Part shown: positions 20,262 to 64,000 of the stretch, in pieces | Layout: each line of letters begins with the position of its first letter | Numbering within the stretch: the stretch's first letter is position 1 | Assembly: GCA_036524115.1 (NCBI GenBank) | Contig: DATDCY010000315.1 | Location: 41,917 to 105,916 of the forward strand | Direction of reading: 5' to 3' | DNA from: a bacterium | Lineage (GTDB): Bacteria > JAUVQV01 > DATDCY01 | Length of the DNA: 64,000 nucleotides | Position numbers and translations under genes: made by a program | Notes under the pieces: generated by a model | Databases searched by the model: none | What the model saw: only the letters and a program-made list of their open reading frames with translations | Told to the model about the DNA's origin: nothing

Positions 20262-21218
20262 ATGAGGAAGCGGGTCCTCGTCCTCCACTACTCGCAGACC
20301 GGCCAGCTCACGTCGGCCATCCGGTCCATGATCGGCCCCCTCGAGCGCGATCCGGAGATCGAGGTCACGTGGGAGGAACTCAAGCCGGTCCGGCCGTACC
20401 CCTTTCCCTGGCCGCTGCTGCAGTTCTTCGACGTCTTCCCCGAGTCGGTGTTCCTGGACCCGCCCGCGATGCAGCCGGTCGCCTTCGATCCCGACAGCAG
20501 GTTCGACCTCGTCGTCATCGCCTACCAGGTGTGGTTCCTCTCGCCGTCGCTGCCGGTCACCGGCTTCCTCAAGTCGGAGGCCGCGCGCGTCCTCGACGGC
20601 GCGCCCGTCGTCACGGTGATCGTCTGCCGGAACATGTGGCTCACGGCCCAGGAAAAGATGAGGGCGCTGATCGAAGCCCGGGGCGGGCGGCTCGTGGACA
20701 ACGTGGCCCTCGTCGACCGGGGCTCGCCGTGGACCACCTTCGTCACGACGCCGCGCTGGCTGCTCACCGGGCGCAAGGGGCCCTTCTGGGGCATCTTTCC
20801 CGGCGCGGGCGTGAGCCGCCAGGACATCGAAGGGGCGGCGCGGTTCGGCAGGGCGCTCGCGGACGGGTTGCGAAAGACGGGAGACGGCCCGGTCCGCGAA
20901 TCGATGCTCGCGGGCCTCGGCGCCGTGCGGGTGAATCCGGCGTACATCATGAGCGAGCGGATGGGCCAGAGGAGCTTCCGCGCGTGGGGCCGGCTCCTCA
21001 GGGCCCTCGGCCCGCCGGCCGCGCCGCTGCGGCGGGTGGCGCTCGTCGTCTACGTCGTGTTCCTCGTGTGCCTGATCCTGACCGTCGTCCCCCTGGGGAT
21101 CGTGGTGCGGGCGGTTCTCCGGCCGTTTCTCCGACGGAGGCTGGATGCCGAGGTCGCGCGCCTGGAGGGACCCTCCGGCTCCTCCACCGAGCGCGTGCAA
21201 TCCTTTGGCAGCGCGTGA
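20262..21218 (+). CDS. darA: Dialkylresorcinol-condensing-enzyme-associated protein DarA-like (flavodoxin-like N-terminus, C-terminal TM helix)
   Basis: The N-terminus MRKRVLVLHYSQTGQLT is flavodoxin-like, and the length is about 318 aa. It is immediately followed by a KAS III-like gene. This is recognised from memory of flexirubin and dar cluster annotations, not from a search. Confidence 0.6.
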   Translation: MRKRVLVLHYSQTGQLTSAIRSMIGPLERDPEIEVTWEELKPVRPYPFPWPLLQFFDVFPESVFLDPPAMQPVAFDPDSRFDLVVIAYQVWFLSPSLPVTGFLKSEAARVLDGAPVVTVIVCRNMWLTAQEKMRALIEARGGRLVDNVALVDRGSPWTTFVTTPRWLLTGRKGPFWGIFPGAGVSRQDIEGAARFGRALADGLRKTGDGPVRESMLAGLGAVRVNPAYIMSERMGQRSFRAWGRLLRALGPPAAPLRRVALVVYVVFLVCLILTVVPLGIVVRAVLRPFLRRRLDAEVARLEGPSGSSTERVQSFGSA

Positions 21219-21226
21219 GCGAGGAC

Positions 21227-22378
21227 ATGGCGAACCCGGTCTTCATCACCGACTTCGGCTCCTTCCTGCCGAACGCGCCCGTCGCGAACGACAGGATCGA
21301 GGATGTCCTCGGGATGGTCGGCGGCCGCAAGTCGCGCGCCCGCGCGATCGTGCTGCGCAACAACGGCATCAGGACCCGCCACTACGCCGTCGACCCGGCG
21401 TCCGGGGCCTTCACCCACACCAACGCCCGGATGACGGCCGAGGCGGTGCGGGCGCTGGTCGCCAGGAGCGGCATCGGGCTCGACGACATCGACTGCCTCT
21501 GCTGCGGCACGTCGAGCCCCGACCAGATCCAGCCCTCCCACGGCTGCATGGTCCAGGGGGAGCTTGCCCTGCCGCCGCGGGAGGTGGTGACCACGTCCGG
21601 CGTCTGTCTCTGCGGCCTGGCGGCGATGAAGTACGCCTGGATGACCGTCGCCGCCGGGCTCGTCGGGAGGGCCGTCTCGACCGGGTCGGAGTTCGCATCG
21701 AGCGTGATGAAGGCGTCCACGTTCTGGTGCGACGAGGGCGCCGGTGTCGACGAGCTGGAAAAGCGGCCTTCCCTGGCGTTCGAGAAGGACTTTCTGCGGT
21801 GGATGCTCTCCGACGGGGCCGGGGCCGCGCTGCTGACAAACAGGCGCGCCCCCGACCGGCTGGCCCTCGCCGTGGACTGGATCGAGACCCGATCGTACGC
21901 GGGCCGCCTGCCCGTGTGCATGTACGCCGGCGCCGTGAAACGCGAGGACGGCTCGCTGGAGGGGATGCGCTCGGTCGACCAGCCCGCGCGGATCGTGAAG
22001 GAGCACTTCCTCGCGCTCAAGCAGGATGCGCGGCTTTTGGATGAGCACATGGTCGCCGTGGCGACGGAGGTCCTGCTGGAGGTGGCCGGGAAGCGGGGGC
22101 TCGCGGCGGGCGACGTCACCTGGTTTCTCCCGCACTACTCGTCGGAGTACTTCAGGCCCCGGCTGCACGCCGCGTTCGCGGCGGCCGGCTTCCCGATCGA
22201 CTTCGCGCGGTGGTTCAGCAACCTTCCCGCCAAGGGCAACGTCGGCTCGGCCGCCATCTACCTGATCCTCGAGGAGCTCTTCTACTCGGGCCGGCTCAAG
22301 CGTGGGGACCGCCTGCTCTGCCTCGTCCCGGAGAGCGCCCGGTTCTCGGTCGGCTACATGCTGCTGACCGTGGTGTGA
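21227..22378 (+). CDS. darB: KAS III (FabH)-like ketosynthase DarB-like
   Basis: The FabH-like architecture is present. The active-site Cys context is TTSGVCLCGLAAM, and the C-terminus is ...GNVGSAAIYLILEELF. An ATG at 21227 or an in-frame GTG at 21215 follows the darA stop. Confidence 0.75.
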   Translation: MANPVFITDFGSFLPNAPVANDRIEDVLGMVGGRKSRARAIVLRNNGIRTRHYAVDPASGAFTHTNARMTAEAVRALVARSGIGLDDIDCLCCGTSSPDQIQPSHGCMVQGELALPPREVVTTSGVCLCGLAAMKYAWMTVAAGLVGRAVSTGSEFASSVMKASTFWCDEGAGVDELEKRPSLAFEKDFLRWMLSDGAGAALLTNRRAPDRLALAVDWIETRSYAGRLPVCMYAGAVKREDGSLEGMRSVDQPARIVKEHFLALKQDARLLDEHMVAVATEVLLEVAGKRGLAAGDVTWFLPHYSSEYFRPRLHAAFAAAGFPIDFARWFSNLPAKGNVGSAAIYLILEELFYSGRLKRGDRLLCLVPESARFSVGYMLLTVV

Positions 22379-22388: not shown

Positions 22389-22802
22389 GTGAAGGCCGAG
22401 GACGTCCCGCAGGAGGAATGGATCTCCGGCCACGGCCGGCGCGCCTGCTATGCCGAGGACGAGAGCGGCAGGTATGTGGTCGTCGCGAGCAGCGGCTGGG
22501 AGGTCGAGCGGATCGTCAACTCCCAGGCCCACGACCAGATCCGGCGCAGGCTCCGCGAGGTGCGGCGCGAGGTGCGCGAGGGCGCGGCGAGCCCGCTCAA
22601 GTACCACATGGAGAGCGCGATGATGGACGCCGGCCTGCTCGCCTCGACGACCGGCCTCTGGAAGTTCCAGGTCAGGCGGCACCTGAAGCCGCGGCACTTC
22701 GCCGCCCTGGACCGCGCCACCCTGGAACGGTACGCGGCGGCCCTGCGCATCTCCGTCGAAGAGCTGCGAAGCCTGCCCGACGAGGAAGGGTGCGGCCCCT
22801 GA
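22389..22802 (+). CDS. Hypothetical protein
   Basis: The ORF is 137 aa and has a GTG start. It shows no recognisable motif. The call rests on position and coding-like composition only. Confidence 0.35.
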   Translation: MKAEDVPQEEWISGHGRRACYAEDESGRYVVVASSGWEVERIVNSQAHDQIRRRLREVRREVREGAASPLKYHMESAMMDAGLLASTTGLWKFQVRRHLKPRHFAALDRATLERYAAALRISVEELRSLPDEEGCGP

Positions 22803-22803
22803 G

Positions 22804-23802
22804 GTGGCCCGGGCCTTCGATCACCGCCATTCGGGGCACTGCGAGACCGGGGCGCTGTCCGCGCTGTTGAGGGACCGCGGACTCGACCTGAGCGAGCCCA
22901 TGGTCTTCGGCCTCGGCGGGGGCGTCTTCTTCGTCCACGCGCCATTCGTGCGCGTGGGGGGCGTGCCGCTCACGGCGTACCGCGACGCGCCAGGGGCGAT
23001 CGTGCGCAGGGTGTGCGCGCGGCTGGGGATCCGCATGCGGACGCACCGCTTCCGGAGCGAGTCGCAGGGCGAAGAGAAGCTCGATGCCCTCCTGGCGGCC
23101 GGGAACTCCGTCGGACTGAGGGCGAGCGTCTACTGTCTCCCGTACTTCCCGAGGGAGATGCGCTTTCGCTTCAACGCGCACCACCTGGTGGTCTTCGACA
23201 GGGAAGGCGGCGAGTACCTGGTCAGCGACCCCGTGTTCGACCACGTCGAGCGCTGCCCGGCGGCGGACCTCGCGCGGGCGCGCTTTGCGAAGGGACTGTT
23301 CGCGCCCAGGGGGCTTCTCTTCTACCCGGAGCGCATTCCGCGGGACTTCGACCTGGACCGCGCCGTCAGGAAGAGCATCCGCTTCACCTGCAGGCGCATG
23401 ACCGCGACGCTGCCGTTCATCGGCGTGCGCGGCATCAGGTACCTGGCGCGCCGGATGCGGCGGTGGCCGGCGAAGCAGGACTACGCGGATGCGGTCCTGA
23501 ACGTGGGGACCGTCGTCCGGATGCAGGAGGAGATCGGCACGGGCGGGGCGGGCTTCCGTTTCATGTACGCAGCGTTCCTGCAGGAGGCGGCCGAGGTGAC
23601 CGGGCTCCCGGCACTCAGGGACGAGGGCAGGGCCATGGCCGAGACGGGGGACCGCTGGCGGGACTTCGCGGTGCAGGGGGCCCGGCTCTGCAAGGGCCAC
23701 GTGCGGGGGGACGCGGCGTTCGACGAGCTCGCCGCGATGCTCGTGGAGTGCGCGGACCGGGAAGAGGGCCTCTATCGGCGGCTGCTCACGATCGTCAGGT
23801 GA
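22804..23802 (+). CDS. BtrH_N-like (papain-fold, C39-related) putative acyltransferase
   Basis: The N-terminal segment HSGHCETGALSALL resembles the BtrH N-terminal domain. This call is tentative. Confidence 0.35.
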   Translation: MARAFDHRHSGHCETGALSALLRDRGLDLSEPMVFGLGGGVFFVHAPFVRVGGVPLTAYRDAPGAIVRRVCARLGIRMRTHRFRSESQGEEKLDALLAAGNSVGLRASVYCLPYFPREMRFRFNAHHLVVFDREGGEYLVSDPVFDHVERCPAADLARARFAKGLFAPRGLLFYPERIPRDFDLDRAVRKSIRFTCRRMTATLPFIGVRGIRYLARRMRRWPAKQDYADAVLNVGTVVRMQEEIGTGGAGFRFMYAAFLQEAAEVTGLPALRDEGRAMAETGDRWRDFAVQGARLCKGHVRGDAAFDELAAMLVECADREEGLYRRLLTIVR

Positions 23803-24076
23803 CGGGGGCGCCGGGCTGGATGACGTCGGCCAGCGCGTTCAGGGATTTCATCACCCGCATGGCCTCCTTCCGGTCGTTGATCTGCACCCCGTAGTCCTTC
23901 TTGAGGGCCACCACCAGCTGCAGCGTGTCCAGCGAATCGAGCTCCAGCGTCGATCCCGGCCCGATCAGGGCCAGGTCCTCGGGGATGGATTCCGGCGCAA
24001 TGTCGAGCCTGCACTCCCTGATGATCAGCGCCTTCAGCCTCGACTTCAGCTCTTCGTCCTCGGAGCCCTTCTTCAC
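23795..24076 (-). CDS. Acyl carrier protein
   Basis: LDSLDTLQLVVAL carries the phosphopantetheine Ser context. The ORF is 93 aa with a GTG start. It is the last gene of the ABC-transporter operon. Confidence 0.75.
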   Translation of the reverse strand: MKKGSEDEELKSRLKALIIRECRLDIAPESIPEDLALIGPGSTLELDSLDTLQLVVALKKDYGVQINDRKEAMRVMKSLNALADVIQPGAPVT

Positions 24077-24133: not shown

Positions 24134-25330
24134 TCAGGAGCGGCTCGCAATCCACCTGAACCGGACCACCGCCACCGACGCGCACACCAGGGAGAACACG
24201 GCCAGGGCCGCGACCCTGGGCAGTATCTCCCGGACGCCCCCGTCGCGCACGAAGATGTCGAGGAACGCCTCCAGCCCCCAGGACATCGGCGAGAGCACCG
24301 TCGCCTTCTGCAGGTAGCGCGGCATCTCGAACGTCGGCACCATGACACCGCCGAGGGCGCCGAAGATGATCGCCGACGTCCCGCCGAGGGTGGCGGCCTG
24401 CTCGACGGACCGGCAGAAGGTCGAGATCATGATGCCGTAGCTGACCGCCGCGAGGCTCGCGCCCGTGGCGACGACCGCCAGGGCCGCCGGCGAGTTGCCC
24501 AGGCGCAGCGCATCGCCGCCGAGGAGCGGGACGATGTAGATGCCGGTCAGGAGCATGAGGGCGAGCTGGACCTGGTTGATGACGAAGAAGGGGATTGCCT
24601 TGCCCAGCAACATGGTCGAGGCGGACACGGGCATCGACAGGATCCGCACGAGGGTTCCCTCCTGGCGCTCCTTGACGAACGCCACGGAGAGAGGGACGAC
24701 GACGAAGAACATCGCGAAGAGGGAATAGGCGGGGACGCTCTGCTGGACCGCGGTCGGCAGGGCGACGGACTTCCCCGAGGCGTTCTCCGGCGCCAGCGCC
24801 GCGAACAGGCGCGGAGGCGCGGCGCCGATCGCCTCGCCGGCCAGCTTCAGCTCCACGCCGAGGAGCGCCTGGTTCAGGACCGAGGCCACCAGGGCGCGGT
24901 GATCCCCCCGCAGCGAGGGGTCGACCAGCAGCCGCAGGGACACGGCGGGCGTCGCGGCTCCGGCCCCGGTCCGGCCCCCCGCGCTCATCGCGGCGCCCGT
25001 CGCACCGGGAGGGACGACGATGCCGAAGGAGTAGCGGCCGTCCGCCACTGCCTTCCTGAGGTCCGCCTCGGTGCCGTCCACGGAGCGCGCCTCGATGCCC
25101 GGCAGGCCGGAGAACCCCCGCAGGACGGCGGTCCCCACCGCGCCCCCGTCCAGGTCCAGCACCGCGCCCGCGAAGACGGCGCCGCCGCCCTTCTCCTTGA
25201 AGACGTCCTCGAGCGCCAGGGACATGATGAGCACGAAGGCCAGCGGCATCAGGAAGAGCACCGCGAGGGCGTCGCGGTCCCGCGCGACGACCCGGGCTTC
25301 CTTGACGACGGACGCGATCAGCCGTGCCAC
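24134..25330 (-). CDS. ABC-2 type transporter permease
   Basis: The N-terminus ARLIASVVKEARVVARDRDALAVLFLMPLAFVLIMSLAL is followed by six hydrophobic spans. The GTG at 25330 overlaps the ATPase gene end by about 13 nt. Confidence 0.7.
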   Translation of the reverse strand: MARLIASVVKEARVVARDRDALAVLFLMPLAFVLIMSLALEDVFKEKGGGAVFAGAVLDLDGGAVGTAVLRGFSGLPGIEARSVDGTEADLRKAVADGRYSFGIVVPPGATGAAMSAGGRTGAGAATPAVSLRLLVDPSLRGDHRALVASVLNQALLGVELKLAGEAIGAAPPRLFAALAPENASGKSVALPTAVQQSVPAYSLFAMFFVVVPLSVAFVKERQEGTLVRILSMPVSASTMLLGKAIPFFVINQVQLALMLLTGIYIVPLLGGDALRLGNSPAALAVVATGASLAAVSYGIMISTFCRSVEQAATLGGTSAIIFGALGGVMVPTFEMPRYLQKATVLSPMSWGLEAFLDIFVRDGGVREILPRVAALAVFSLVCASVAVVRFRWIASRS

Positions 25331-26325
25331 GGCGGATGTCCCCCGGTGCCGCTGCGGCCCTGCGTGAGCGAGAGAAAGAGCTCCTCGAGGCTGGCAGTGC
25401 CCTGGCGCAGCGACAGCACGCCGATGCCGCGCTCCTCGAGGAGGGCGAGCGCGTTGCGGGTCGTCCTGGCCGGCGAGGCGCTGATCAGCGTCAGCGCGCC
25501 GTCCCGCCAGCGCGCCTCCCGGACGGACGGCAGGCCGCCGGCCTCGCGCACGACGGCGTCGGGGACCGGCGCAGCCGTCCTGATCGCGATGACGTCGTGC
25601 CCGAAGCGCGCGAGCAGCTCCCTCACCGGTCCGGTGGCGATCAGCCGCCCCCGGTCCAGGATCGCGATCTCCTGGCACAGGTACTCCACCTCTTCCAGGT
25701 AGTGGCTCGCGTAGAGGACCGTCATCCCCTCGGCGTTCATGCGCTTGAGGCTGTCGTAGAGAAAGTGCCGGGACGGCGGGTCGATGCCGACGGTGGGCTC
25801 GTCCAGAAGGAGCAGCCGCGGGTTGTGGATCAGCCCGACGGCGAGGCTCAGCCTGCGCTTCTGTCCGCCCGAGAGCGTCCGGACCCGCCTGTCCGCGAGG
25901 TCGTGGAGGTCCGCTATATCCAGGCAGCGCTCGATCTCCTTCGCCAGCGCCGGCGCCCGCAGTCCCTGCATGGCGCCGAAGAACGCCAGGTTCTCGCGCG
26001 CGGACAGGGTGGGGTAGAGCGCGATGTCCTGGGGCACGTATCCCAGCGTGGCCTTGATCGCCGAAGGGCGCTCCGAAAGCGGATGCCCGTCGATCGAGAC
26101 CGTGCCCGAATCAGGCCGGATCAACGTGCAGAGGATGGAGAGGAGCGTGGTCTTGCCGGCGCCGTTCGGGCCGAGGAGGCCGAAGAAGCTCCCCCGTCCG
26201 ATGGAAAGGCTCATCCCGTCGAGGGCGGGCCCGTCCGCGCGCCGGTAGGTCTTCGACACGGATGACAGCTCGACGATGGGTCGGGAACCGGGTGTCATGG
26301 GGCTGGCGTCGACGGTCGGAGCCAC
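25318..26325 (-). CDS. ABC transporter ATP-binding protein
   Basis: Walker A is GPNGAGKTT. The signature motif is LSGGQKRRL. Walker B is LLLLDEPT. Confidence 0.85.
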   Translation of the reverse strand: MAPTVDASPMTPGSRPIVELSSVSKTYRRADGPALDGMSLSIGRGSFFGLLGPNGAGKTTLLSILCTLIRPDSGTVSIDGHPLSERPSAIKATLGYVPQDIALYPTLSARENLAFFGAMQGLRAPALAKEIERCLDIADLHDLADRRVRTLSGGQKRRLSLAVGLIHNPRLLLLDEPTVGIDPPSRHFLYDSLKRMNAEGMTVLYASHYLEEVEYLCQEIAILDRGRLIATGPVRELLARFGHDVIAIRTAAPVPDAVVREAGGLPSVREARWRDGALTLISASPARTTRNALALLEERGIGVLSLRQGTASLEELFLSLTQGRSGTGGHPPWHG

Positions 26326-26515: not shown

Positions 26516-27592
26516 GTGAGCCGACACCCCCTGCCCACCGGCTCTTCCGAGTTCCCGCCCGACGTCATCGCCGCGGCCGCCCGCGCGGGCCGCCTGCTGA
26601 CGATGGAGATCGAGTTCAGCCTGCGCTGCAACTTCCGCTGCCCGTACTGCTACGTGCCCGGGAAGGAGCAGGCGCCCGACGAGCTCTCCGTGGAGGAGAT
26701 CCGCTCGGCCATCCTCCAGGCCAAGGCGCTCGGCGCGAGCAGGATCATCGTGCTCGGCGGCGAGCCGACGATCTACCCCGCCACGCCGGAGCTGATCGCG
26801 TTCATGCGGGAGAACGGCCTGGAGGTCGAGCTGTTCACCAACGGCACGGGGATCACCGGGGAGTTCGCCCGCATGCTGCACCGCCACCAGGTGCGGGTGG
26901 CCCTGAAGATGAACGCCTTCGACCCGGCGCTGCAGGACCGGCTCTCGGGGCGCGACGGCGCGCACCGCATCATCGGCGCGGCGCTGGAGCGGCTCAAGGC
27001 CCTCGGCTATCCCGATGCGGGGCACCAGCTCGCGATCAGCTCCGTGATCTGCCGGCAGAACATCGCCGACCTGCCGCGCCTCTGGCAGTGGGCGCGGGAG
27101 CAGGGGATCCTGCCGTACTTCGAGATCATCACGCCCCAGGCCAACGCCCTGGACAACCCGTGGCTGGACGTGCACCCCCCCGAGCTGGAGGCGTTCTTCC
27201 GCACGATTGCCGACCTGGACGAGCGCCTCTTCGGCCACCGCTGGGAGATCCAGCCGCCCCTCGTCGGCGGCCAGTGCATGCGCCACCAGTACTCGTGCGT
27301 CGTGACCGCCCGGGGCGACGTCATGCCCTGCGTCGGCGTCGCCATCGCGCTCGGGAACATCCGCGAGCAGCCGCTGGCCGAGATCCTCGCCGGCAGCCAG
27401 GTGCTCAGGGACCTGAAGAACTACCGCGAGACGATCAAGGGCGGCTGCAGCACCTGCGACCGCGCGGATGTCTGCTACGGCTGCCGGGGCGCTGCCTTCC
27501 AGATCACCAGCGACTACCTGGCGTCCGATCCGCTCTGCTGGCGCAACTGGCGGGAGGAGCGTCGAGCCGCCGGCTCACGGGACGCCCGCTAG
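26516..27592 (+). CDS. Radical SAM enzyme with C-terminal SPASM domain
   Basis: The CxxxCxxC cluster is CNFRCPYC. GGEPT is present. The C-terminal Cys cluster is CSTCDRADVCYGCRGAAF. The start is GTG 26516 or ATG 26603. Confidence 0.75.
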   Translation: MSRHPLPTGSSEFPPDVIAAAARAGRLLTMEIEFSLRCNFRCPYCYVPGKEQAPDELSVEEIRSAILQAKALGASRIIVLGGEPTIYPATPELIAFMRENGLEVELFTNGTGITGEFARMLHRHQVRVALKMNAFDPALQDRLSGRDGAHRIIGAALERLKALGYPDAGHQLAISSVICRQNIADLPRLWQWAREQGILPYFEIITPQANALDNPWLDVHPPELEAFFRTIADLDERLFGHRWEIQPPLVGGQCMRHQYSCVVTARGDVMPCVGVAIALGNIREQPLAEILAGSQVLRDLKNYRETIKGGCSTCDRADVCYGCRGAAFQITSDYLASDPLCWRNWREERRAAGSRDAR

Positions 27593-30299: not shown

Positions 30300-30365
30300 C
30301 CAACGAGAAGAACTCATGGCCAGACGGCTCATCTGGTGGAGCCGACGCAGAACGTGTAGGAGCCG

Positions 30366-30647: not shown

Positions 30648-30659
30648 GAGGATGAAGGG

Positions 30660-34296: not shown

Positions 34297-34330
34297 CTCG
34301 CTCGCTCGCGCTGGCGGGGGTGGCGGGTCG

Positions 34331-48624: not shown

Positions 48625-48723
48625 TCGGCACCCCGGACGGCATGACACTGGCGATCGCAGCATGGTCACGACTTTCTACTACAAGAGCCGCCGCCTGAAA
48701 AGTCAAATCTTCGTCGGCCTCGC

Positions 48724-56417: not shown

Positions 56418-56440
56418 TGCACCCGTGGGCGGGCGGGGCG

Positions 56441-58671: not shown

Positions 58672-58757
58672 CGCGCCTGCAAAGACCCCATCTGCGGCGT
58701 TGGGCTGCGTCCCTCCTCACTGCGGCGTACGACAACGTACGCCTCATTCGTCGGGAC

Positions 58758-59648
58758 TTGCCCGCCTTGCATCTGGGGCCTCTGCAAGCGCGTCAACGTT
58801 TTGCGCGCCCGTGGTGCGCGGGGATCGGGCTCCTGGCGGCCGCCGTCGCTCTCGCCTGGCCGGGCGGCGCCCGCGCCGAGCAGGCCCTGCGCCCGCGCTG
58901 GGAGATCGGCGCCGGCGTCGCCGCGTTTTCCATGCCGGCCTATCGCGGCTCGAGCGAGCAGCGGGGCTACCTCCTCCCGGTCCCCTATGCCGTCTACCGG
59001 GGGGAGGTGCTGAAGGTCGACCGGGAGAAGGTCGCCGGGATGCTCTTCTCGAGCGAGCACGTCAAGCTGGACATCAGCATGAGCGGGTCGGCCCCGGCTT
59101 CGAGCGACGGCCTGGAGGCCCGCCGGGGCATGCCCGACCTCGCGCCGTCGTTCGAGGTGGGACCGCAGCTCGACGTGATCCTGTCGGAGCGCGATCGCTG
59201 GCGCCTCGACCTCTACCTGCCGGTGCGCCGGGTGGTGGCGGTCGACGGCTCGGGACTGCACGCCATCGGCTGGGTGGCCAACCCGTCGCTCGGTCTCGCC
59301 GTCAAGGACGTGGGGCCGGGAGGGGGCTGGGAGCTCGGGATCTCGGGCGGCCCCCTCTGGGCGGACGCGGAGATGCACGGGTACTACTACGGGGTGTCCC
59401 CCGAGTACGCCACCGCTGACCGGCCTGCCTACCGGGCCCGCGGCGGATACAGCGGCACGGCGCTGACCGTCAGCGCGACAAAGCGCTTCGATCGCCTGTG
59501 GGTGGGCGCGTTCGTGCGGGTCAATCTCCTGCAGGGCACGGCCTTCGAGGGAAGCCCGCTGGTCGAGGAGCGCACCGGCTATCTCGCGGGCCTGGCGGTC
59601 TCCTGGGTGCCGCTGCAGTCCCGCGACCTGGTGCTCTCGGATTATTGA
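58758..59648 (+). CDS. MipA/OmpV-family outer-membrane protein
   Basis: The signal peptide is GIGLLAAAVALAWPGGARA. The beta-barrel pattern ends ...LAGLAVSWVPLQSRDLVLSDY. There is no ATG or GTG, so the start is placed at TTG about 58758 and is uncertain. It is embedded in listed ORF 57888..59648. Confidence 0.55.
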   Translation: MPALHLGPLQARQRFARPWCAGIGLLAAAVALAWPGGARAEQALRPRWEIGAGVAAFSMPAYRGSSEQRGYLLPVPYAVYRGEVLKVDREKVAGMLFSSEHVKLDISMSGSAPASSDGLEARRGMPDLAPSFEVGPQLDVILSERDRWRLDLYLPVRRVVAVDGSGLHAIGWVANPSLGLAVKDVGPGGGWELGISGGPLWADAEMHGYYYGVSPEYATADRPAYRARGGYSGTALTVSATKRFDRLWVGAFVRVNLLQGTAFEGSPLVEERTGYLAGLAVSWVPLQSRDLVLSDY

Positions 59649-59732
59649 CCGGGCCGCGGATCCCCCGGGGAGACGGCGCCGGGCCGCGGGCCGGCCTCGG
59701 CGCCGGAGGCCAGCCCGCGATCCTGAAGGCTC

Positions 59733-60338
59733 CTAGAAATTGTCGTCGAGTCGGAAGAGCAGCACCGCCGCGCCCCGGAACCCGTTCCTGGTGCCGTCGC
59801 CGTCGTCGTAGTCCGTCTCCCACGAGTAGCCGCTGAACTCGTACCCCGCCTCGAGTCCCAGCGTCACCACCGGCCCGAGGTTGAAGTTCACGCCGAGCGC
59901 CGGCCCGATCCCGATCCCGAAGTCCTGGAAGTCTCCGTTGAAGTCGCTGTCGTACCCGTAGGCGAGACTGATCTGCGGGCCGATCCAGAGCCGGAAGGGC
60001 GCGGTCCGCACCACTCCGAAGCCGAAGGTATTGGTCATGACCATCCGGTCGATCTTGAGGTCCCGGTTGCCCTGCCCATCTTCGACGGTCTCCCGCTCGT
60101 ACCCGAGGGCGAGACGGTAGTTGAAGATCCGATCGGCGGCGACGTTCGTGTCGAGGACGAAGTTCAGGCCCGTGGCCTTGAAGTCGTAATCCTCGTCGGG
60201 CTCGTCGAGACTGAGCGTGCCGCCTTTGACATCGACGCCCACCCCGATCCCGACTGCGCGAGCCGCGGTGGGAAGACACAGCGACACCGTCACGAGGGCG
60301 AGCAGTGCCAGTACCAAACCCGTCCGACGCACGTTCAT
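59733..60338 (-). CDS. Outer-membrane beta-barrel protein
   Basis: GAGGAGGG precedes the ATG. The signal peptide is MNVRRTGLVLALLALVTVSLCLPTAARA. The C-terminus is ...LLFRLDDNF. Confidence 0.6.
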   Translation of the reverse strand: MNVRRTGLVLALLALVTVSLCLPTAARAVGIGVGVDVKGGTLSLDEPDEDYDFKATGLNFVLDTNVAADRIFNYRLALGYERETVEDGQGNRDLKIDRMVMTNTFGFGVVRTAPFRLWIGPQISLAYGYDSDFNGDFQDFGIGIGPALGVNFNLGPVVTLGLEAGYEFSGYSWETDYDDGDGTRNGFRGAAVLLFRLDDNF

Positions 60339-60652
60339 GCATCCCTCCTCTGTTGTGTCCCGAGGCCGCGTCACGGGACCACCCCGTCACGCCAGGCCGC
60401 GGCACGGCAAGACCGACGATCGTCTTTCTTCAGCGACGCGAAGTCGTCGCGAGCGGGGTTCCTCCGGAGGTCCCCCGAGTCAGGATGGGAGGCATTTTCG
60501 GGTCGGGGTCCGGGTCTGTCAAGCAACTCCTGCCCGGAGGCGGTCGAGGGTCGTTCTTGACTTTGGCCCGGGACGTCATAGGTTTGTTCCTGAGGGTGCC
60601 TGATGTGCCGCGCACCCTGGCCGCAGCAGACAGCAAGAGAGGAGGACTCAGC

Positions 60653-61204
60653 ATGAAGATCGCCATCCGGTTCGCTCTCGGTGCCGTTGTCGTCGCAGCA
60701 CTCGCGGGCCCCCTGTCCGCCCAGCAGCCCGCGCAGGAGCCTGCGCCGCCGGCCGCGAAAGAGGCCGCGCAGGCCGCGCAACCGGCCGCCCAACAGCCCG
60801 CCGCCCAGCCCGCCCCGGAGGCGAAGCCGGAGGTCAGCCCGGAGGTCAGGAAGCTGATCAAGGGCGAGATCAAGCAGGCGGTCGCCGTGCTCGGCGCCGA
60901 CGGCATCCAGCGGGTCGAGATCCTCGGGGGCGGCTACTTCTACAACCCGAACTACGTCATCGTGAAGGTCAACGTCCCCGTCGAGATCACCTACAAGCGG
61001 GAGCCCGGCTTCGTCCCGCACGACTTCGCGATCAAGGCACCGGATGCCGGCATCAACTTCTCGGAGTCGATGGACACCAAGCCGAAGGTCGTGAAGTTCA
61101 CCCCGACGAAGACCGGCGTCTATCCCTTCTACTGCACCAAGAAGCTGCTCTTCTTCGCCAGCCACCGCGACAAGGGCATGGAGGGCGCCCTCGAGGTCCG
61201 GTAG
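60653..61204 (+). CDS. Secreted cupredoxin-like domain protein
   Basis: GAGGAGGA precedes the ATG. The signal peptide is MKIAIRFALGAVVVAALAGPLSAQ, followed by an Ala/Gln/Pro-rich linker. Candidate type-1 Cu ligands are H(VPHDF), C(FYCT), H(ASHRD) and M(KGM). Confidence 0.5.
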   Translation: MKIAIRFALGAVVVAALAGPLSAQQPAQEPAPPAAKEAAQAAQPAAQQPAAQPAPEAKPEVSPEVRKLIKGEIKQAVAVLGADGIQRVEILGGGYFYNPNYVIVKVNVPVEITYKREPGFVPHDFAIKAPDAGINFSESMDTKPKVVKFTPTKTGVYPFYCTKKLLFFASHRDKGMEGALEVR

Positions 61205-61242
61205 GGCGTTCCGGGCGGCGCCGCGGAGGGGGGCAGAGACGG

Positions 61243-61668
61243 ATGAAGGAACTCGTTCCCGTTATTCAGGTCCTTCACGCCGTCTTCAACGCGGCGCTCT
61301 TCGCGGCGTTCATCGTGCAGGGGACGCTCGGGTGGCGCATCCGGCGCAGGCGCCTCTCCGGGGCGTCCCCGGATTTCGCGGCGGTCAAGAAGCACCGCAG
61401 CCGCGGCCCGCTCCTCGCGAAGCTTGCGGTCGCGGGCTATCTCGCCGGCCTCGTCACCGCGTACCTGCATCGCGGCACGCTGGTCACCGCCCCCGCGCAC
61501 CTCGCCGGAGGGACCATCCTCCTCGCCTGCTGCTGGGTGGCGGTCGTCCTGGGAGGGCGCATCCGCGGCCCGCAGTCGCCGGCGCGCACGCAGCACCTGG
61601 CGGCAGGGGGCGCGACGCTCGTCGCGTTCGTCGTCCAGGTCTTCCTCGGCCTCAACGTCCTGCTCTAG
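61243..61668 (+). CDS. Small 4-TM membrane protein, unknown function
   Basis: Four hydrophobic helices are present. The ORF is 141 aa. Confidence 0.45.
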   Translation: MKELVPVIQVLHAVFNAALFAAFIVQGTLGWRIRRRRLSGASPDFAAVKKHRSRGPLLAKLAVAGYLAGLVTAYLHRGTLVTAPAHLAGGTILLACCWVAVVLGGRIRGPQSPARTQHLAAGGATLVAFVVQVFLGLNVLL

Positions 61669-61744
61669 CGTGGCCGCTGAAGGAGCCTGATCGGACGAGC
61701 GCTCCTTGACTTTGTCCCGGGGCGCCGGGAGAATCCTCGGCGCG

Positions 61745-62377
61745 ATGCGCGCGCACCAACTCCGATCGGCCCGCGGCGCGGGCGCCATGCTCGCCCTGTC
61801 CCTGGTGGCCGCGGCGGCGGGGGCGGGCGCCGCGACGACCGACGAGGTGCTGGCGCGGCTGGCCCGCGAGGCCGCGCGCGTCGAGACGCTGCAGGCGGGC
61901 ATCGTCCAGGAGAAGCGCCTCGAGATGTTCCAGGACACCGTGACCTCGCGGGGGCGCTTCGCCTACCGCCGCCCCGACCGGCTGCGCTGGGAGCTGACCG
62001 ATCCGGTCGCGACCGGCTTCGTCATCGCCGGCTCGTCCGGGCGGCGCTGGCACGGGCTCACGGGCAGGACGGAGCCGTTCACGCTCGAGAGCGACCCGAT
62101 GATGAAGGTCGTGGCCGGGCAGCTGCTGGCGTGGGCGCACGCCGACTTCGGCGCGATGCGCCGCGACTTCCGGATCGCCGTCGCCTCCGAGGCGCCGGTC
62201 ACGCTGCAGCTCGAGCCGCTGGCGGCCAACGCGTTCGTCGCGCGGGTGACGATGGTCTTCGCGGCAAGCGGCGACCACGTCGAGTCGGTCACCGTCGAGG
62301 AGAAGGGGGGGGACCGGACGGTCATGCGGTTCACCGACGTCGAGGTCAACCGGCCGCTGCCCGATGGACTCTTCTGA
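61745..62377 (+). CDS. LolA-like outer-membrane lipoprotein carrier protein (APE-cluster type)
   Basis: The start is placed at MRAHQLRSARGAGAMLALSLVAAAAGAGA. LolA-like segments are present (...RLRWELTDPVATGFVIAGSSGRRW...). Confidence 0.6.
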   Translation: MRAHQLRSARGAGAMLALSLVAAAAGAGAATTDEVLARLAREAARVETLQAGIVQEKRLEMFQDTVTSRGRFAYRRPDRLRWELTDPVATGFVIAGSSGRRWHGLTGRTEPFTLESDPMMKVVAGQLLAWAHADFGAMRRDFRIAVASEAPVTLQLEPLAANAFVARVTMVFAASGDHVESVTVEEKGGDRTVMRFTDVEVNRPLPDGLF

Positions 62378-64000
62378 GCCCGCGGTCCCACCCGCGGACT
62401 CGCCGCTCGCGAGGCTTTTCGAGCGGCTTCACCGCCGGCTCGCCGGCCGGCGCGCAGTCCTCGCCGCCGCCATGCTGGCCCTGGTTGCGGCGGCCGCCCT
62501 GGTCGCGGCGCGCGCGACCATCCGCGAGGACATCGGCGCGATGCTCCCCGACGAGCGCTCCGCCGTCGGGCGGGACTTCGAGCTCTTCTCCGGCACGCCG
62601 CTCGCCCGCACCGTGCTCGTGGCGCTCGTCGCGCAACCGGGGACCGCGGCCGGCGCCCTCGACGAGGCGGCGCAGCGCGTCGAGGCCGCGCTCGGGCCGC
62701 CGCTGTTCTCGCCCCGTCCGTCCCCGCCCGACCCGGCGCACGTCGCCGCCCTGCTGCCGCGCGCCCTCCAGGTCATGGCCGAGCCCGGCGACCTGGAGCG
62801 CCTCGCCGCGCTCGGCCCCCGGGACGTGGCGGGAAAGCTCGCCGCCGCCTACGAAACGCTGCTCTCGCCGCAGGGCATCGGGGCGAAGGCCTTCCTGCGG
62901 AACGATCCGCTCGGCGTCGCCGGGCCGATCCTGGCGCGCTTCACGCCGTCCGGGATGTCCCTCGAGGGCGGCGGCCAGCGCCAGCGCGGCCGGGACGGGC
63001 GCAGCCTGCTGCTGACCTTCGACTCGCCGGTGCCGATGACCGACTTCGGCAGGGCCCGGGAGGTCGACGCGCTGCTGCGCACGACCGCCGCGGCGCTGCC
63101 GCCGGGCGTCGCGATGCACGCGGTCAGCGGCCACCGCTACACGGTCGCGAACGCGGAGGCGATCCGCCGCGACCTGGCCGTGATCATCTCGGTCTCGTCA
63201 CTTGCGATCCTCGGCATCTACCTCTGGTTCCTGCGCAGCCGCCTGGCGGTCTTCGTCTTCCTCGTGCCGATGACGGTCCTCGTGCTCGCCACGGGCGGCA
63301 TCTCGCTGCTGCCCGGCGGGGTGTTCGCGATCACGCTCGGCTTCGGCGGCGTCCTGCTCGGCATGACCGACGAGTACGCGAGCTACGTGTTCTTCGCGAC
63401 CCGGCTCGGAGGCGCGGATCAGGCGCGCGCCGTGGGCGCGGCCGCGCGTCCCGTGGTGATGGGGGGCCTCGCCACGGCCACCTCCTTCGGGGTGATGGCC
63501 TTCTCCACCCTCCCGGGACAGCGGCAGCTCGGCATCTTCGGCCTGCTGGGCATCGTGACCTCGGTGCTGATCTCGCTCATCGTGCTTCCGCACTTCGTCG
63601 CGCCCGGCACGGCCCCCCTGCCGCCGCTGCCGCGCCCGCTGCCGCTTTCCGCGCGGCTCGTGCTGCCGGTGTGGATCGCGCTGCTCGTCCTGAGCCTCGC
63701 CGGCGCGACCCGCGTGCGGTTCGACGGCTCGATGGCCTCGCTCGGCTTCGTCACGCCCGAGCTGCGGGCGGCCGAGCGGGAGATCGGGACGGTCTCGGGC
63801 GACCTTGGGGGCAAGGCCGTGGTCTTCGCGCGCGGCGCCACGCTCGCAGAGGCGCTCGAGCGCAACGAGGCGGTGTACCGCCGCCTCGGCGGCACGCTGG
63901 CGCCGGCGGAGATCGTCAGCCTCGCCCCCGTGGTTCCCGGCGCCGGGACGCGCGAGCGACGGCAAGCCGATTGGCTGGCCTTCTGGCGCGGGCCGCAGGG
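62364..64000 (+). CDS. MMPL/RND-type exporter, N-terminal part (continues beyond window end)
   Basis: I translated 62364 onward by hand. It gives MDSSEPAVPP...AVLAAAMLALVAAAALVAARA, then a large periplasmic loop, then a TM block (IISVSSLAILGIYLWFLRSRLAVFVFLVPMTVLVLATGGISLL...GFGGVLLGMTDEYASYVFF). The frame is open to the window end. It is absent from the track because there is no stop. Confidence 0.7.
   Translation, partial: MDSSEPAVPPADSPLARLFERLHRRLAGRRAVLAAAMLALVAAAALVAARATIREDIGAMLPDERSAVGRDFELFSGTPLARTVLVALVAQPGTAAGALDEAAQRVEAALGPPLFSPRPSPPDPAHVAALLPRALQVMAEPGDLERLAALGPRDVAGKLAAAYETLLSPQGIGAKAFLRNDPLGVAGPILARFTPSGMSLEGGGQRQRGRDGRSLLLTFDSPVPMTDFGRAREVDALLRTTAAALPPGVAMHAVSGHRYTVANAEAIRRDLAVIISVSSLAILGIYLWFLRSRLAVFVFLVPMTVLVLATGGISLLPGGVFAITLGFGGVLLGMTDEYASYVFFATRLGGADQARAVGAAARPVVMGGLATATSFGVMAFSTLPGQRQLGIFGLLGIVTSVLISLIVLPHFVAPGTAPLPPLPRPLPLSARLVLPVWIALLVLSLAGATRVRFDGSMASLGFVTPELRAAEREIGTVSGDLGGKAVVFARGATLAEALERNEAVYRRLGGTLAPAEIVSLAPVVPGAGTRERRQADWLAFWRGPQ

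What the first reader, a model, noticed from the sequence alone, without database searches (positions are those of the whole stretch)
20262..64000. APE/flexirubin-like lipid-pigment island with an unusually large radical-SAM complement (seven enzymes)
The core genes match aryl-polyene and flexirubin-type clusters. These are DarA/DarB, four ACPs, four Cys-active KS, a KS-CLF fusion, FabG, two hotdog dehydratases, two 4HBT thioesterases, PlsC, a GT2-LpxL fusion, methyltransferases, a NodB deacetylase, a LolA-like carrier and an MMPL exporter.

Interleaved with them are seven radical-SAM enzymes: four B12-binding class B, two tandem non-B12 paralogs and one SPASM enzyme. A phytoene-desaturase-like oxidoreductase, a DAK2-DegV fusion and an ACP-linked ABC exporter are also interleaved.

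Characterised APE and flexirubin clusters, as I recall them, carry no radical-SAM enzymes. The combination of rSAMs, a CrtI-like oxidoreductase, KS and ACP is reminiscent of the gene sets proposed for ladderane-type lipids, but that similarity is only superficial. The product is likely a heavily C-modified lipid or polyene, possibly methylated, cross-linked or cyclised. It may be previously undescribed.
Basis: partly seen in the sequence, partly recalled or inferred. Interest (0 to 1): 0.85.

Follow-up and report, generated by a model that had tools for sequence, protein, structure and literature searches.

The report
Radical-SAM-rich aryl-polyene-type lipid gene cluster
This is a roughly 45-kb gene cluster for a polyene-type outer-membrane lipid or pigment, of a kind common in sulfate-reducing bacteria and related to the unsolved 'ladderane' clusters of anammox bacteria. 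Its seven radical-SAM enzymes are conserved parts of the pathway, the cluster type has been described before, and its product is still unknown.

Summary
The region encodes DarA/DarB/DarG/DarH, four ACPs, three stand-alone Cys-His-His ketosynthases and a KS-CLF fusion. It also encodes FabG, ApeI/ApeP-type dehydratases, two 4HBT thioesterases, a PlsC-type acyltransferase, a GT2-LpxL fusion, LolA and MMPL. There are seven radical-SAM enzymes, all with an intact CX3CX2C motif.

The rSAM genes are not an accidental juxtaposition. The block g28-g41 is syntenic at 50-90% amino-acid identity in many Desulfobacterales and Syntrophobacterales genomes, including cultured Desulfatitalea and Desulfosarcina. 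Two rSAMs (g32, g41) are the most conserved proteins of that block.

One B12-rSAM (g36) passes the curated cut-off of NCBIfam TIGR04072 ('rSAM_ladder_B12'). The gene inventory is close to the union of the three Kuenenia clusters, and syntenic clusters were reported in 2009 for Desulfotalea, Geobacter and Pelobacter.

So this is a member of a described but chemically uncharacterised cluster family. In this genome it has gained a dialkylresorcinol (dar) cassette and a Fic/ParE/Phd insertion. No characterised BGC with this rSAM set was found. The product and the chemistry of each rSAM are inferred, not shown.

The parts
18709..20088 (-). g16, adenylating enzyme (AMP-binding N-domain only; ApeH / 'phenylacetyl-CoA-ligase'-like). 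This is the left edge of the cluster.
   Evidence: Pfam AMP-binding. The best NCBIfam match is 4-coumarate-CoA ligase, below its cut-off. It is conserved next to the SPASM rSAM in L003, L005 and L086. The start codon was checked.
20262..21218 (+). g17, DarA (dialkylresorcinol aromatase, also named 'condensing enzyme')
   Evidence: It is 100% identical to P0121, named dialkylresorcinol condensing enzyme by NCBI. No Pfam or NCBIfam model matched.
21227..22378 (+). g18, DarB (KAS III-like cyclase)
   Evidence: NF005293 StlD/DarB family, 524.5 bits against a cut-off of 450.
22389..22802 (+). g19, DarG-family protein
   Evidence: NF053536, 152.7 bits against a cut-off of 70.
22804..23802 (+). g20, DarH, a BtrH-related ACP-dependent acyltransferase
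   Evidence: NF053550, 437 bits against a cut-off of 300. Pfam BtrH_N plus DUF4872.
23795..24076 (-). g21, ACP of the dar module
   Evidence: Pfam PP-binding. DSL motif.
24134..26259 (-). g22 and g23, ABC-2 permease and ATPase of the dar module
   Evidence: Pfam. The same genes occur in the arcuflavin dar cluster (PMC3949708) and in L085 and L086.
26516..27592 (+). g24, radical SAM/SPASM enzyme
   Evidence: Pfam Radical_SAM plus SPASM. CX3CX2C motif. Orthologues at 68-69% identity in L003-L005 and 44-50% in NC10 and Lentisphaerae loci. The start was set from L086.
27589..28560 (-). g25, SAM-dependent methyltransferase (start uncertain)
   Evidence: Pfam Methyltransf_25/23/12/11. Conserved in L086.
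28598..29014 (+). g26, small conserved membrane protein with no family assignment
   Evidence: No Pfam or NCBIfam hit. 50-69% identical in L001, L002, L013 and L015, and present in L086.
29184..30923 (.). Insertion that is not part of the pathway: Fic (29184-30299, plus strand), ParE toxin (30366-30647, minus strand) and Phd/YefM antitoxin (30660-30923, minus strand)
   Evidence: Pfam. Absent at this position in L086, L001, L002, L013 and L015.
31036..32523 (-). g28, PKS-type double-hotdog dehydratase fused to an Sfp-type phosphopantetheinyl transferase
   Evidence: Pfam PS-DH, PKS_DH_N and ACPS. The fusion is conserved.
32544..33029 (-). g29, 4HBT thioesterase
   Evidence: Pfam 4HBT_2. 63-81% identical in relatives.
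33031..35581 (-). g30 and g31, two FabF-like ketosynthases, both with Cys-His-His
   Evidence: Pfam. Alignment.
35590..36588 (-). g32, radical SAM enzyme of SPASM/twitch-like fold, with a C-terminal CCx6Cx2C motif. It is the most conserved protein of the shared block.
36603..37652 (-). g33, paralogous radical SAM enzyme (28% identical to g32)
37661..37921 (-). g34, ACP
   Evidence: Pfam PP-binding. DSM motif.
38024..38404 (-). g35, ApeI-like hotdog dehydratase (126 aa)
   Evidence: The best PDB matches are 3ESI and 6QSR. The match to amxFabZ 8AYD is only E = 0.0027.
38504..39862 (-). g36, B12-binding radical SAM enzyme, a member of TIGR04072 (rSAM_ladder_B12)
   Evidence: 378.6 bits against a cut-off of 360. 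147 relatives were confirmed in the genome collection. Among the 43 kept loci of at least 15 kb, KS genes lie nearby in 19 of 20 close loci and 14 of 23 distant loci.
39865..41997 (-). g37, KS-CLF fusion (equivalent to ApeO-ApeC)
   Evidence: Pfam ketoacyl-synt, ketoacyl-synt_C and Ketoacyl-synt_2. PDB matches 7F28, 6QSP and 6KXD. The C-half lacks the Cys and the second His.
42024..42299 (-). g38, ACP
42317..43500 (+). g39, ApeP-like dehydratase, and g40, FabG/ApeQ-type ketoreductase
   Evidence: Pfam ApeP-like (22 bits, below its cut-off of 27) and adh_short.
43497..44765 (+). g41, radical SAM enzyme with a short B12-binding-type N-domain (422 aa). It is the second most conserved protein of the block.
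44787..46277 (-). g42, B12-binding radical SAM enzyme (BchE/HpnR-like)
   Evidence: 61-78% identical in L003, L006, L008, L010, L013 and L015.
46303..48643 (-). g43, PlsC-type acyltransferase (ApeD-like); g44, KS (ApeR-like); g45, ACP
48760..49431 (+). g46, UbiE-like SAM methyltransferase (ApeB-like)
   Evidence: Pfam.
49418..51034 (-). g47, fusion of GT2 (polyprenyl-phosphate sugar-transferase-like) with an LpxL-type acyltransferase
   Evidence: Present in 14 of 23 distant loci.
51031..53153 (-). g48, FakA (Dak2 plus middle domain)-DegV fusion, and g49, 4HBT thioesterase
53463..54098 (+). DUF4410 protein (membership in the cluster uncertain)
   Evidence: Pfam, 42.6 bits against a cut-off of 26.
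54109..57160 (-). g50, CrtI-like amine-oxidase flavoprotein; g51, NodB-type deacetylase; g52, GT25 glycosyltransferase
   Evidence: The orthologues are scattered in L001, L004, L017 and L019.
57253..58671 (+). g53, B12-binding radical SAM enzyme (BchE/HpnJ-like)
   Evidence: 70-78% identical in L004 and L017, and 44-47% in L031, L033, L037 and L038.
58668..61668 (.). MipA, an OMP beta-barrel, a 183-aa unknown and DUF4079 (membership in the cluster unproven)
   Evidence: No counterparts were found in the related loci.
61706..64000 (+). g58, LolA-like carrier, and g59, MMPL/RND exporter (ApeL/ApeM-like). g59 is cut by the window end.
   Evidence: 41-42% and 34-36% identical in L031, L033 and L037.

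Best explanation
This is a type-II FAS/PKS-like lipid-pigment gene cluster of the aryl-polyene (APE) kind, in the form carried by anaerobic Desulfobacterota. That form belongs to the same family as the 'ladderane-like' FASII/radical-SAM clusters of Kuenenia, Desulfotalea and Geobacter. In this genome a dialkylresorcinol (dar) cassette has been added.

**Shown**
- The gene families, their catalytic motifs and their conserved co-location.

**Inferred pathway**
1. The adenylating enzyme g16 loads a starter acid.
2. The KS-CLF fusion g37, ketoreductase g40 and the ApeI/ApeP dehydratase pair g35/g39 extend the chain on ACP g38. No enoyl reductase is encoded, so the chain stays polyunsaturated.
3. 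KS g44 with ACP g45, and the clade-specific module g28-g34, make or remodel further acyl chains. That module holds a DH-PPTase, a thioesterase, two KS, two rSAMs and an ACP.
4. The seven rSAMs act on carrier-bound chains at unactivated carbons.
   - The four B12-type enzymes are candidates for C-methylation or C-C bond formation.
   - The three SPASM/twitch-type enzymes are candidates for H-abstraction-driven cross-linking, desaturation or decarboxylation.
5. Several enzymes build a glycolipid anchor, as in the Xenorhabdus APE lipids: GT2-LpxL g47, deacetylase g51, GT25 g52, PlsC-type g43, and thioesterase g49 with the FakA-DegV fusion g48.
6. DarA, DarB and the dar ACP make a dialkylresorcinol. 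DarH transfers an ACP-bound acyl chain onto it, giving a flexirubin- or arcuflavin-like ester.
7. LolA, MMPL and the ABC pump deliver the products to the outer membrane.
For: **Family assignments**
- Pfam and NCBIfam scans.
- KS catalytic residues and the CLF half.
- rSAM motifs.
- ACP serines.

**APE kinship**
- g37 matches ApeO 6QSP.
- g35 matches 3ESI and 6QSR.
- Every core APE family named by Grammbitter et al. (KS, CLF, ACP, DH, KR, transporter) has a counterpart here.

**Dar module**
- It matches curated models and the arcuflavin gene list.

**rSAMs are part of the system**
- Synteny at 50-90% identity in 20 close loci, with the same order and strands.
- g32 (84%) and g41 (78.5%) are the most conserved proteins of the block.
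- g24, g36, g41 and g53 recur with KS/CLF, ACP, GT2-LpxL, LolA and MMPL in Lentisphaerae, NC10 and Thermodesulfobacteriota loci.

**Ladderane-family link**
- TIGR04072 membership.
- Published Kuenenia and Desulfotalea inventories.

**rSAM class**
- The g32 fold matches BlsE, SkfB, anSME, SuiB and GDGT-MAS.
- The g41 fold matches MgmA and AprD4.
Against: - No product is known for any rSAM-bearing member of this family. The rSAM chemistries are guesses from enzyme class alone.
- No aryl-starter pathway (TAL, chorismate lyase/XanB2) is in the window, so the 'aryl' part is unsupported.
- The Pfam ApeP-like hit of g39 is below its cut-off.
- AprD4, a top structural match of g41, does not use cobalamin (my own knowledge), so a B12-type domain does not prove methylation.
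- The dar cassette is absent from the same site in L003 and L005. A DAR ester therefore cannot be the family's general product.
- Orthology of g32/g33 with kuste3342/3343 could not be tested.
Confidence: 0.6

Rival explanations
1. The cluster makes genuine ladderane (concatenated cyclobutane) lipids.
For: - g36 passes the TIGR04072 'rSAM_ladder_B12' cut-off.
- An ACP, a DH, a KS with an inactive KS partner, a B12-rSAM and a phytoene-desaturase-like protein mirror Kuenenia cluster kuste3603-3608.
Against: - The closest relatives are Desulfobacterales and Syntrophobacterales, not anammox Planctomycetota.
- Desulfotalea, which has a syntenic cluster, has no ladderanes (PMC2649909).
- g35 resembles ApeI-type dehydratases far more than amxFabZ (E = 0.0027 to 8AYD).
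- g36 is only about 33-36% identical to the Planctomycetota hits and sits just above the family cut-off.
- Even in anammox bacteria the link between cluster and ladderanes is unproven.
Confidence: 0.03
2. This is not a pigment cluster. It makes a housekeeping envelope lipid of sulfate reducers, for example mid-chain C-methylated, cross-linked or otherwise rSAM-modified fatty acyl chains on a glycolipid or phospholipid anchor. The APE-like enzymes serve as a dedicated FAS.
For: - g32 and g41 are extremely conserved across genera: 79-90% and 72-85% identity, with hundreds of near-identical homologues in metagenomes. This fits a core function better than a dispensable pigment.
- Anchor-building genes (PlsC-type, GT2-LpxL, deacetylase, GT25, FakA-DegV) are present.
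- No aryl-starter genes are present.
Against: - No enoyl reductase is in the cluster, which favours polyunsaturated chains.
- The KS-CLF, ApeI/ApeP, LolA and MMPL set is the APE signature.
- Gene content varies between relatives: L003 lacks g32-g35 and g37-g39, and L006 and L010 lack module g28-g35 at the site. That is typical of accessory metabolism.
Confidence: 0.3
3. This is an accidental juxtaposition. The rSAM genes belong to unrelated pathways (RiPP or cofactor maturation) that merely lie among lipid genes.
For: - g24 scores best, but far below cut-off, against heme and PQQ/peptide-maturase SPASM models.
- The region does contain one foreign insertion, Fic/ParE/Phd.
Against: - All seven rSAM types recur next to KS, ACP and GT2-LpxL genes in many genomes, with order and strand conserved.
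- No precursor-peptide or cofactor-pathway genes are nearby.
- No rSAM reaches the cut-off of any peptide or cofactor family.
Confidence: 0.02

Closest known systems
'Ladderane-like' FASII/radical-SAM clusters of Kuenenia stuttgartiensis (kuste2802-2805, 3335-3352, 3603-3608) and their syntenic counterparts in Desulfotalea psychrophila, Geobacter and Pelobacter (Rattray 2009, PMC2649909; Javidpour 2016, PMC4790861)
   Same: - The unusual mix is the same: several FabF paralogues including an inactive one, several ACPs, FabG, a DH, tandem rSAMs and B12-rSAMs.
- It also shares a phytoene-desaturase-like flavoprotein, a phenylacetyl-CoA-ligase-like enzyme, a glycosyltransferase, a polysaccharide-deacetylase-like protein, a UbiE-like methyltransferase and a PPTase.
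- g36 belongs to the curated family named after these clusters, TIGR04072.
- The product in non-anammox hosts is equally unknown.
   Different: - This cluster holds seven rSAMs in one locus, against four rSAMs spread over three loci in Kuenenia (PMC2649909, PMC4790861).
- The inactive KS is fused to its partner.
- The dehydratase is ApeI-like, not amxFabZ-like.
- This cluster also carries LolA/MMPL export genes, a FakA-DegV fusion and a dar cassette.
- Sequence-level orthology was tested only for g36 (against the family model) and for g35 (against amxFabZ, weak).
Aryl-polyene (APE) gene clusters of E. coli CFT073, Xenorhabdus doucetiae and Acinetobacter baumannii (apeA-R)
   Same: - It has counterparts of ApeO/ApeC (KS/CLF), ApeR, the ACPs ApeE/F, the ApeI/ApeP dehydratases and the ApeQ ketoreductase.
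- It also has counterparts of the ApeD and ApeJ acyl/glycosyl-transferases, the ApeK thioesterase, the ApeB methyltransferase, the ApeH adenylating enzyme and ApeL/ApeM (LolA/MMPL).
- No enoyl reductase is encoded.
   Different: - As far as I know, characterised APE clusters have no rSAM enzymes.
- Here there are seven rSAMs, an extra KS-KS-rSAM-rSAM-ACP module, a CrtI-like flavoprotein, a deacetylase, GT25 and FakA-DegV.
- No aryl-starter supply genes were seen.
Flexirubin and arcuflavin polyene-dialkylresorcinol hybrids (dar cluster of Azoarcus sp. BH72, PMC3949708; Chitinophaga and Flavobacterium flexirubin)
   Same: - DarA, DarB, a DarG-family protein, the BtrH-like acyltransferase, an ACP and an ABC ATPase/permease have the same content and nearly the same order as the arcuflavin dar cluster.
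- Both also carry a toxin-antitoxin insertion: inside the dar cluster in Azoarcus, and a few kb from the dar module here.
   Different: - No TAL/4CL (FlxA/FlxY) or XanB2 is present.
- g18 is below the cut-off of the specific 'resorcinol_DarB' model (443 bits against 550).
- The dar cassette is accessory here, being absent at the same site in L003 and L005.

Membership tests
APE-type gene cluster | A KS plus chain-length-factor pair (ApeO/ApeC) | tested here: met
   g37 is a fusion. Its N-half keeps Cys-His-His. Its C-half (Pfam Ketoacyl-synt_2) lacks the Cys and the second His. The nearest PDB entries include ApeO 6QSP.
APE-type gene cluster | A second stand-alone KS (ApeR) and dedicated ACPs (ApeE/F) | tested here: met
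   g44 is an active KS. There are four ACPs with DSx motifs.
APE-type gene cluster | The ApeI/ApeP hotdog dehydratase pair and the ApeQ ketoreductase, with no enoyl reductase | tested here: met
   - g35's nearest PDB matches are 3ESI and 6QSR.
- g39 hits Pfam ApeP-like at 22 bits, below its cut-off of 27.
- g40 is FabG-type.
- No ER family was found in any gene.
APE-type gene cluster | A LolA-like carrier and an MMPL exporter (ApeL/ApeM) | tested here: met
   g58 hits Pfam LolA and g59 hits MMPL. g59 is truncated by the window end.
APE-type gene cluster | An aryl starter unit (4-hydroxybenzoate or coumarate supply) and an aryl-polyene product | tested here: not met
   No TAL, chorismate lyase or XanB2 gene is in the 64-kb window. 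Only an ApeH-like adenylating enzyme is present, with a sub-threshold match to 4-coumarate-CoA ligase. The product cannot be tested with these tools.
Dialkylresorcinol (dar) module of flexirubin/arcuflavin clusters | The DarB cyclase and the DarA aromatase | tested here: met
   g18 scores 524.5 against a cut-off of 450 for the StlD/DarB family, but 442.7 against 550 for the specific DarB exception model. g17 is named DarA-type only through an identical NCBI record.
Dialkylresorcinol (dar) module of flexirubin/arcuflavin clusters | The accessory genes: DarG family, BtrH-like acyltransferase (DarH), ACP and ABC transporter | tested here: met
   DarG family scores 152.7 against 70, and DarH 437 against 300. 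The gene list equals that of the arcuflavin dar cluster.
Ladderane-associated lipid cluster (Kuenenia type) | A B12-binding rSAM of family TIGR04072 | tested here: met
   g36 scores 378.6 bits against a cut-off of 360. The other three B12-type rSAMs score 47-90 bits.
Ladderane-associated lipid cluster (Kuenenia type) | An anammox-specific FabZ (amxFabZ) | tested here: not met
   g35 against K. stuttgartiensis amxFabZ 8AYD gives E = 0.0027. It matches ApeI-like 3ESI much better, at E = 4e-12.
Ladderane-associated lipid cluster (Kuenenia type) | Tandem rSAMs orthologous to kuste3342/3343 (DP1853/DP1855) | not testable with these tools
   The Kuenenia and Desulfotalea sequences could not be retrieved. 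The named distant relatives of g32 are from Acidobacteriota, Ponticaulis and Deltaproteobacteria.
Ladderane-associated lipid cluster (Kuenenia type) | An anammox host and a ladderane product | tested here: not met
   The nearest homologues are from Desulfobacterales and Syntrophobacterales. The product itself cannot be tested here.

The most novel reading that the evidence does not exclude
The conserved rSAM set builds a so-far unknown class of radical-SAM-modified ketoacyl (non-isoprenoid) lipids in sulfate-reducing bacteria. The key parts are the clade-specific KS-KS-rSAM-rSAM-ACP module and the near-invariant g41. The products could be C-methylated, cyclised or cross-linked polyene chains made on ACPs. 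Because g36 belongs to the same family as the anammox enzyme, the cultured Desulfatitalea and Desulfosarcina carriers would offer an experimentally accessible route to what the 'ladderane' B12-rSAM actually does.
Probability: 0.35. Interest if true: 0.8.

Novelty: new member of a known kind. Interest (0 to 1): 0.45.

Why it matters
[quoted passage not shown] It also notes that the anammox enzymes remain uncharacterised.

This cluster shows that a large rSAM set is fixed in an APE-type lipid pathway across many sulfate reducers, some of them cultured. Two of those rSAMs are more conserved than the ketosynthases.

Solving its product would define new rSAM lipid chemistry. It could also indicate what TIGR04072 enzymes do in ladderane biosynthesis. 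As a sequence observation, however, the cluster type has been in the literature since 2009 and is already captured by a curated protein family.

Tried and rejected
- **Rfam scan for a cobalamin riboswitch or other RNA:** nothing found.
- **PDB searches to link the methyltransferase g46, the ACP g34 and the KS g31 to the solved anammox proteins:**
  - No anammox methyltransferase or amxACP appeared among the listed hits.
  - g31 is simply FabF-like, with B. subtilis 4LS5 the best match.
- **Naming distant relatives of g32 to reach Kuenenia or Desulfotalea:** this returned Acidobacteriota, Ponticaulis and Deltaproteobacteria only, so orthology with kuste3342/3343 stays open.
- **Extending the window beyond 64 kb through exact-protein look-ups:** only short Logan contigs were retrievable.
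- **Literature searches:** queries for flexirubin clusters with rSAMs, for TIGR04072, and for a characterised APE cluster with rSAMs found nothing.
- **Fold searches of g32 and g41:** they give the enzyme class but no specific reaction. Both models are of moderate confidence (pLDDT 70 and 67).
- **Ideas rejected:**
  - A RiPP or cofactor role for the rSAMs, because no score reaches a cut-off and there is no precursor context.
  - A hopanoid or tetraether origin, because no isoprenoid genes are present and the HpnJ, HpnR and Tes scores are far below their cut-offs.

Full report
**Observation**

The window is about 70% G+C, so I called genes with a codon-usage model. I then scanned each product against Pfam and NCBIfam.

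- **Dar module:** DarA, DarB, a DarG-family protein and the BtrH-like acyltransferase DarH, with an ACP and an ABC-2 exporter.
- **ACPs:** four in all, each with the DSx serine motif.
- **Ketosynthases:** three stand-alone KS with Cys-His-His, plus one KS-CLF fusion. The C-terminal half of the fusion has lost the Cys and the second His.
- **Other fatty-acid-type enzymes:** FabG, two small hotdog dehydratases plus a PKS-type dehydratase fused to a PPTase, and two 4HBT thioesterases.
- **Anchor and tailoring genes:** a PlsC-type acyltransferase, a GT2-LpxL fusion, two methyltransferases, a NodB-type deacetylase, GT25, a CrtI-like flavoprotein and a FakA(Dak2)-DegV fusion.
- **Export genes:** LolA, and an MMPL exporter cut by the window end.
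- **Radical-SAM enzymes:** seven, all with an intact CX3CX2C motif.
  - One has a SPASM domain (g24).
  - Two are tandem paralogues with a shared C-terminal CCx6Cx2C motif (g32, g33).
  - Four have an N-terminal B12-binding-type domain (g36, g41, g42, g53).

Three corrections apply:

- The cluster begins upstream of 20262, with the ApeH-like adenylating enzyme at 18709-20088.
- The true starts of g41 and g35 are 43497 and 38404.
- 29184-30923 (Fic, ParE, Phd/YefM) is an insertion, absent at the same position in relatives.

**Are the rSAMs part of the system?**

Yes. A scan of 185,579 species genomes with g36 confirmed 147 relatives, of which 80 loci were kept. I ran tblastn with all window proteins against those loci.

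- The block g28-g41 recurs with the same order and strands at 50-90% amino-acid identity. It runs DH-PPTase, 4HBT, KS, KS, rSAM, rSAM, ACP, DH, B12-rSAM, KS-CLF, ACP, ApeP-DH, FabG, B12-type rSAM.
- The genomes are Desulfobacterales, Desulfatitalea and Syntrophobacteraceae, including the cultured Desulfatitalea alkaliphila. Homologue searches add Desulfosarcina widdelii and Desulfatitalea tepidiphila.
- g42-g47 follow in the same arrangement in L003, L008, L013 and L015.
- g24, g51, g52 and g53 occur in shuffled positions in the same loci.
- Across ten loci the most conserved proteins are two rSAMs: g32 at 84% mean identity and g41 at 78.5%. Both are ahead of the ketosynthases and ACPs.
- A metagenomic contig (L086) reproduces the left part of the window gene for gene, from the adenylating enzyme through the dar module, the SPASM rSAM, the methyltransferase, g26 and the DH-PPTase.
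- Further away, g24, g36, g41 and g53 types sit beside KS/CLF, ACP, GT2-LpxL, LolA and MMPL in Lentisphaerae, NC10 and Thermodesulfobacteriota loci. g41 is still 63-67% identical there.
- DarG, DarH and ABC genes lie next to a TIGR04072-like gene in Bacteroidota MAGs (L028-L030, L036).
- Among loci of at least 15 kb, KS genes lie within 10 kb of the g36 homologue in 19 of 20 close loci and 14 of 23 distant loci.

**What it is**

The core is an APE-type type-II system.

- g37 corresponds to the ApeO-ApeC KS/CLF pair, and its nearest solved structures include ApeO 6QSP.
- g35 is closest to the ApeI-type hotdogs 3ESI and 6QSR.
- Every core family that Grammbitter et al. use to define ape clusters is present: KS, CLF, ACP, DH, KR and transporter.
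- Counterparts of ApeB, D, H, J, K and L are also present.
- No enoyl reductase is encoded.

The segment 20262-26259 is a standard dar module.

- It matches curated models for DarB (family level), DarG and DarH.
- It has the same gene list as the arcuflavin dar cluster of Azoarcus.
- It is accessory. In L003 and L005 the SPASM rSAM abuts the adenylating enzyme with no dar genes between them.
- In L085 a dar module sits beside a simpler APE-like cluster with no rSAM within 10 kb.

**Relation to ladderane clusters**

The evidence says otherwise.

- g36 scores 378.6 bits against NCBIfam TIGR04072 ('rSAM_ladder_B12', lipid biosynthesis B12-binding/radical SAM protein), above its curated cut-off of 360.
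- The published inventories of the three Kuenenia clusters are:
  - ACP, FabZ, FabF, non-canonical FabF, phytoene desaturase, rSAM.
  - PPTase, B12-rSAM, FabF, non-canonical FabB.
  - GT, phytoene desaturase, methylases, FabZ, ACPs, FabG, tandem rSAMs, phenylacetyl-CoA ligase, FabFs, deacetylase-like.
- Together these add up to nearly the window's gene set.
- Rattray et al. reported syntenic clusters in Desulfotalea, Geobacter and Pelobacter in 2009. They found no ladderanes in Desulfotalea.
- Metagenome surveys report antiSMASH 'ladderane' calls in Desulfobacterota, Myxococcota and other phyla, with unknown function.

This does not make the window a ladderane producer.

- The host lineage is not anammox.
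- g35 is not amxFabZ-like (E = 0.0027 to 8AYD).
- g36 sits only just above the family threshold.
- I could not retrieve the Kuenenia or Desulfotalea sequences, so orthology of the tandem pair g32/g33 with kuste3342/3343 is untested.
- The g32 family is small. Among 1.84 billion representatives only 34 reach E <= 1e-30, and there is a single full-length 50%-identity cluster for the orthologues.
- The named distant relatives of g32 come from Acidobacteriota, Ponticaulis and Deltaproteobacteria.

**Mechanism**

The gene families, motifs and conserved linkage are shown. The pathway below is inferred from the established functions of these families.

1. g16 loads a starter acid.
2. The KS-CLF fusion, the KR and the ApeI/ApeP dehydratases extend the chain without enoyl reduction, giving a polyunsaturated chain on an ACP.
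3. Further chains come from KS g44 with ACP g45, and from the clade-specific module g28-g34.
4. A glycolipid anchor is assembled by GT2-LpxL, the deacetylase, GT25 and the PlsC-type enzyme. A thioesterase plus the FakA-DegV fusion provide an acyl-phosphate route. This parallels the GalNAc-phosphate-glycerol anchor of the Xenorhabdus APE lipids.
5. DarA and DarB form the dialkylresorcinol, and DarH forms the ester.
6. LolA, MMPL and the ABC pump export the products.

For the rSAMs only the enzyme class can be argued.

- The AlphaFold model of g32 (pLDDT 70, pTM 0.75) is closest to the SPASM/twitch enzymes BlsE, SkfB, anSME and SuiB, to viperin, and to the tetraether synthase GDGT-MAS.
  - This suggests H-abstraction followed by C-C or C-X bond formation, oxidation or decarboxylation, rather than methyl transfer.
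- The g41 model (pLDDT 67) is closest to the B12-rSAM methylase MgmA and to the diol dehydratase AprD4.
  - Both methylation and non-methylating chemistry therefore remain possible.

**Novelty and score**

I found no characterised BGC with this rSAM complement. [quoted passage not shown]

Against that, the cluster type has been described since 2009, is captured by a curated protein family, and is abundant in public genomes. I therefore class it as a new member of a known but chemically unsolved kind.

It has some lineage-specific features: the dar cassette, the toxin-antitoxin and Fic insertion, and seven rSAMs in one locus.

Interest is moderate. The open question is real, and cultured carriers exist. 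This window adds an instance rather than a new concept.

Noticed in passing
window 29184-30923: A Fic-domain gene, a ParE toxin and a Phd/YefM antitoxin are inserted inside the biosynthetic cluster, between g26 and g28. They are absent at the same site in L086, L001, L002, L013 and L015. The Azoarcus dar cluster also carries a Phd/PilT pair.
   Followed up: yes
window 51031-52746 (minus strand): The N-terminal Dak2 and middle domains of the fatty-acid kinase FakA are fused to a full DegV (FakB-like fatty-acid-binding) domain. The gene lies next to a 4HBT thioesterase. This suggests a route from free acid to acyl-phosphate for lipid assembly.
   Followed up: partly
window 31036-32523 (minus strand): A PKS-type double-hotdog dehydratase is fused to an Sfp-type phosphopantetheinyl transferase. 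The fusion is conserved in relatives (L086 and L001-L005). It recalls the PPTase kuste2802, which lies beside a B12-rSAM in Kuenenia.
   Followed up: partly
window 35590-36588 and 43497-44765: Two radical-SAM proteins are more conserved across genera (84% and 78.5% mean identity) than the ketosynthases and ACPs of the same cluster. g41 stays 63-67% identical even in Lentisphaerae. This is unusually strong constraint for tailoring enzymes.
   Followed up: partly
L085 (ENA contig_11020, 720 kb), locus positions 1-16400: A dar module lies next to a simpler APE-like cluster that contains a CrtI-like amine oxidase between two KS genes. No rSAM lies within 10 kb. The dar cassette therefore combines with different polyene clusters.
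   Followed up: no
window 5498-7768 and 14842-16239: Upstream of the cluster are a 756-aa multicopper-oxidase-like protein and a 465-aa pentapeptide-repeat protein. Neither has a counterpart in the related loci. They appear unrelated to the cluster.
   Followed up: no
window 58668-61668: MipA, an OMP beta-barrel protein, a 183-aa unknown and a DUF4079 membrane protein lie between the last B12-rSAM and LolA. It is unknown whether they serve outer-membrane insertion of the product.
   Followed up: no
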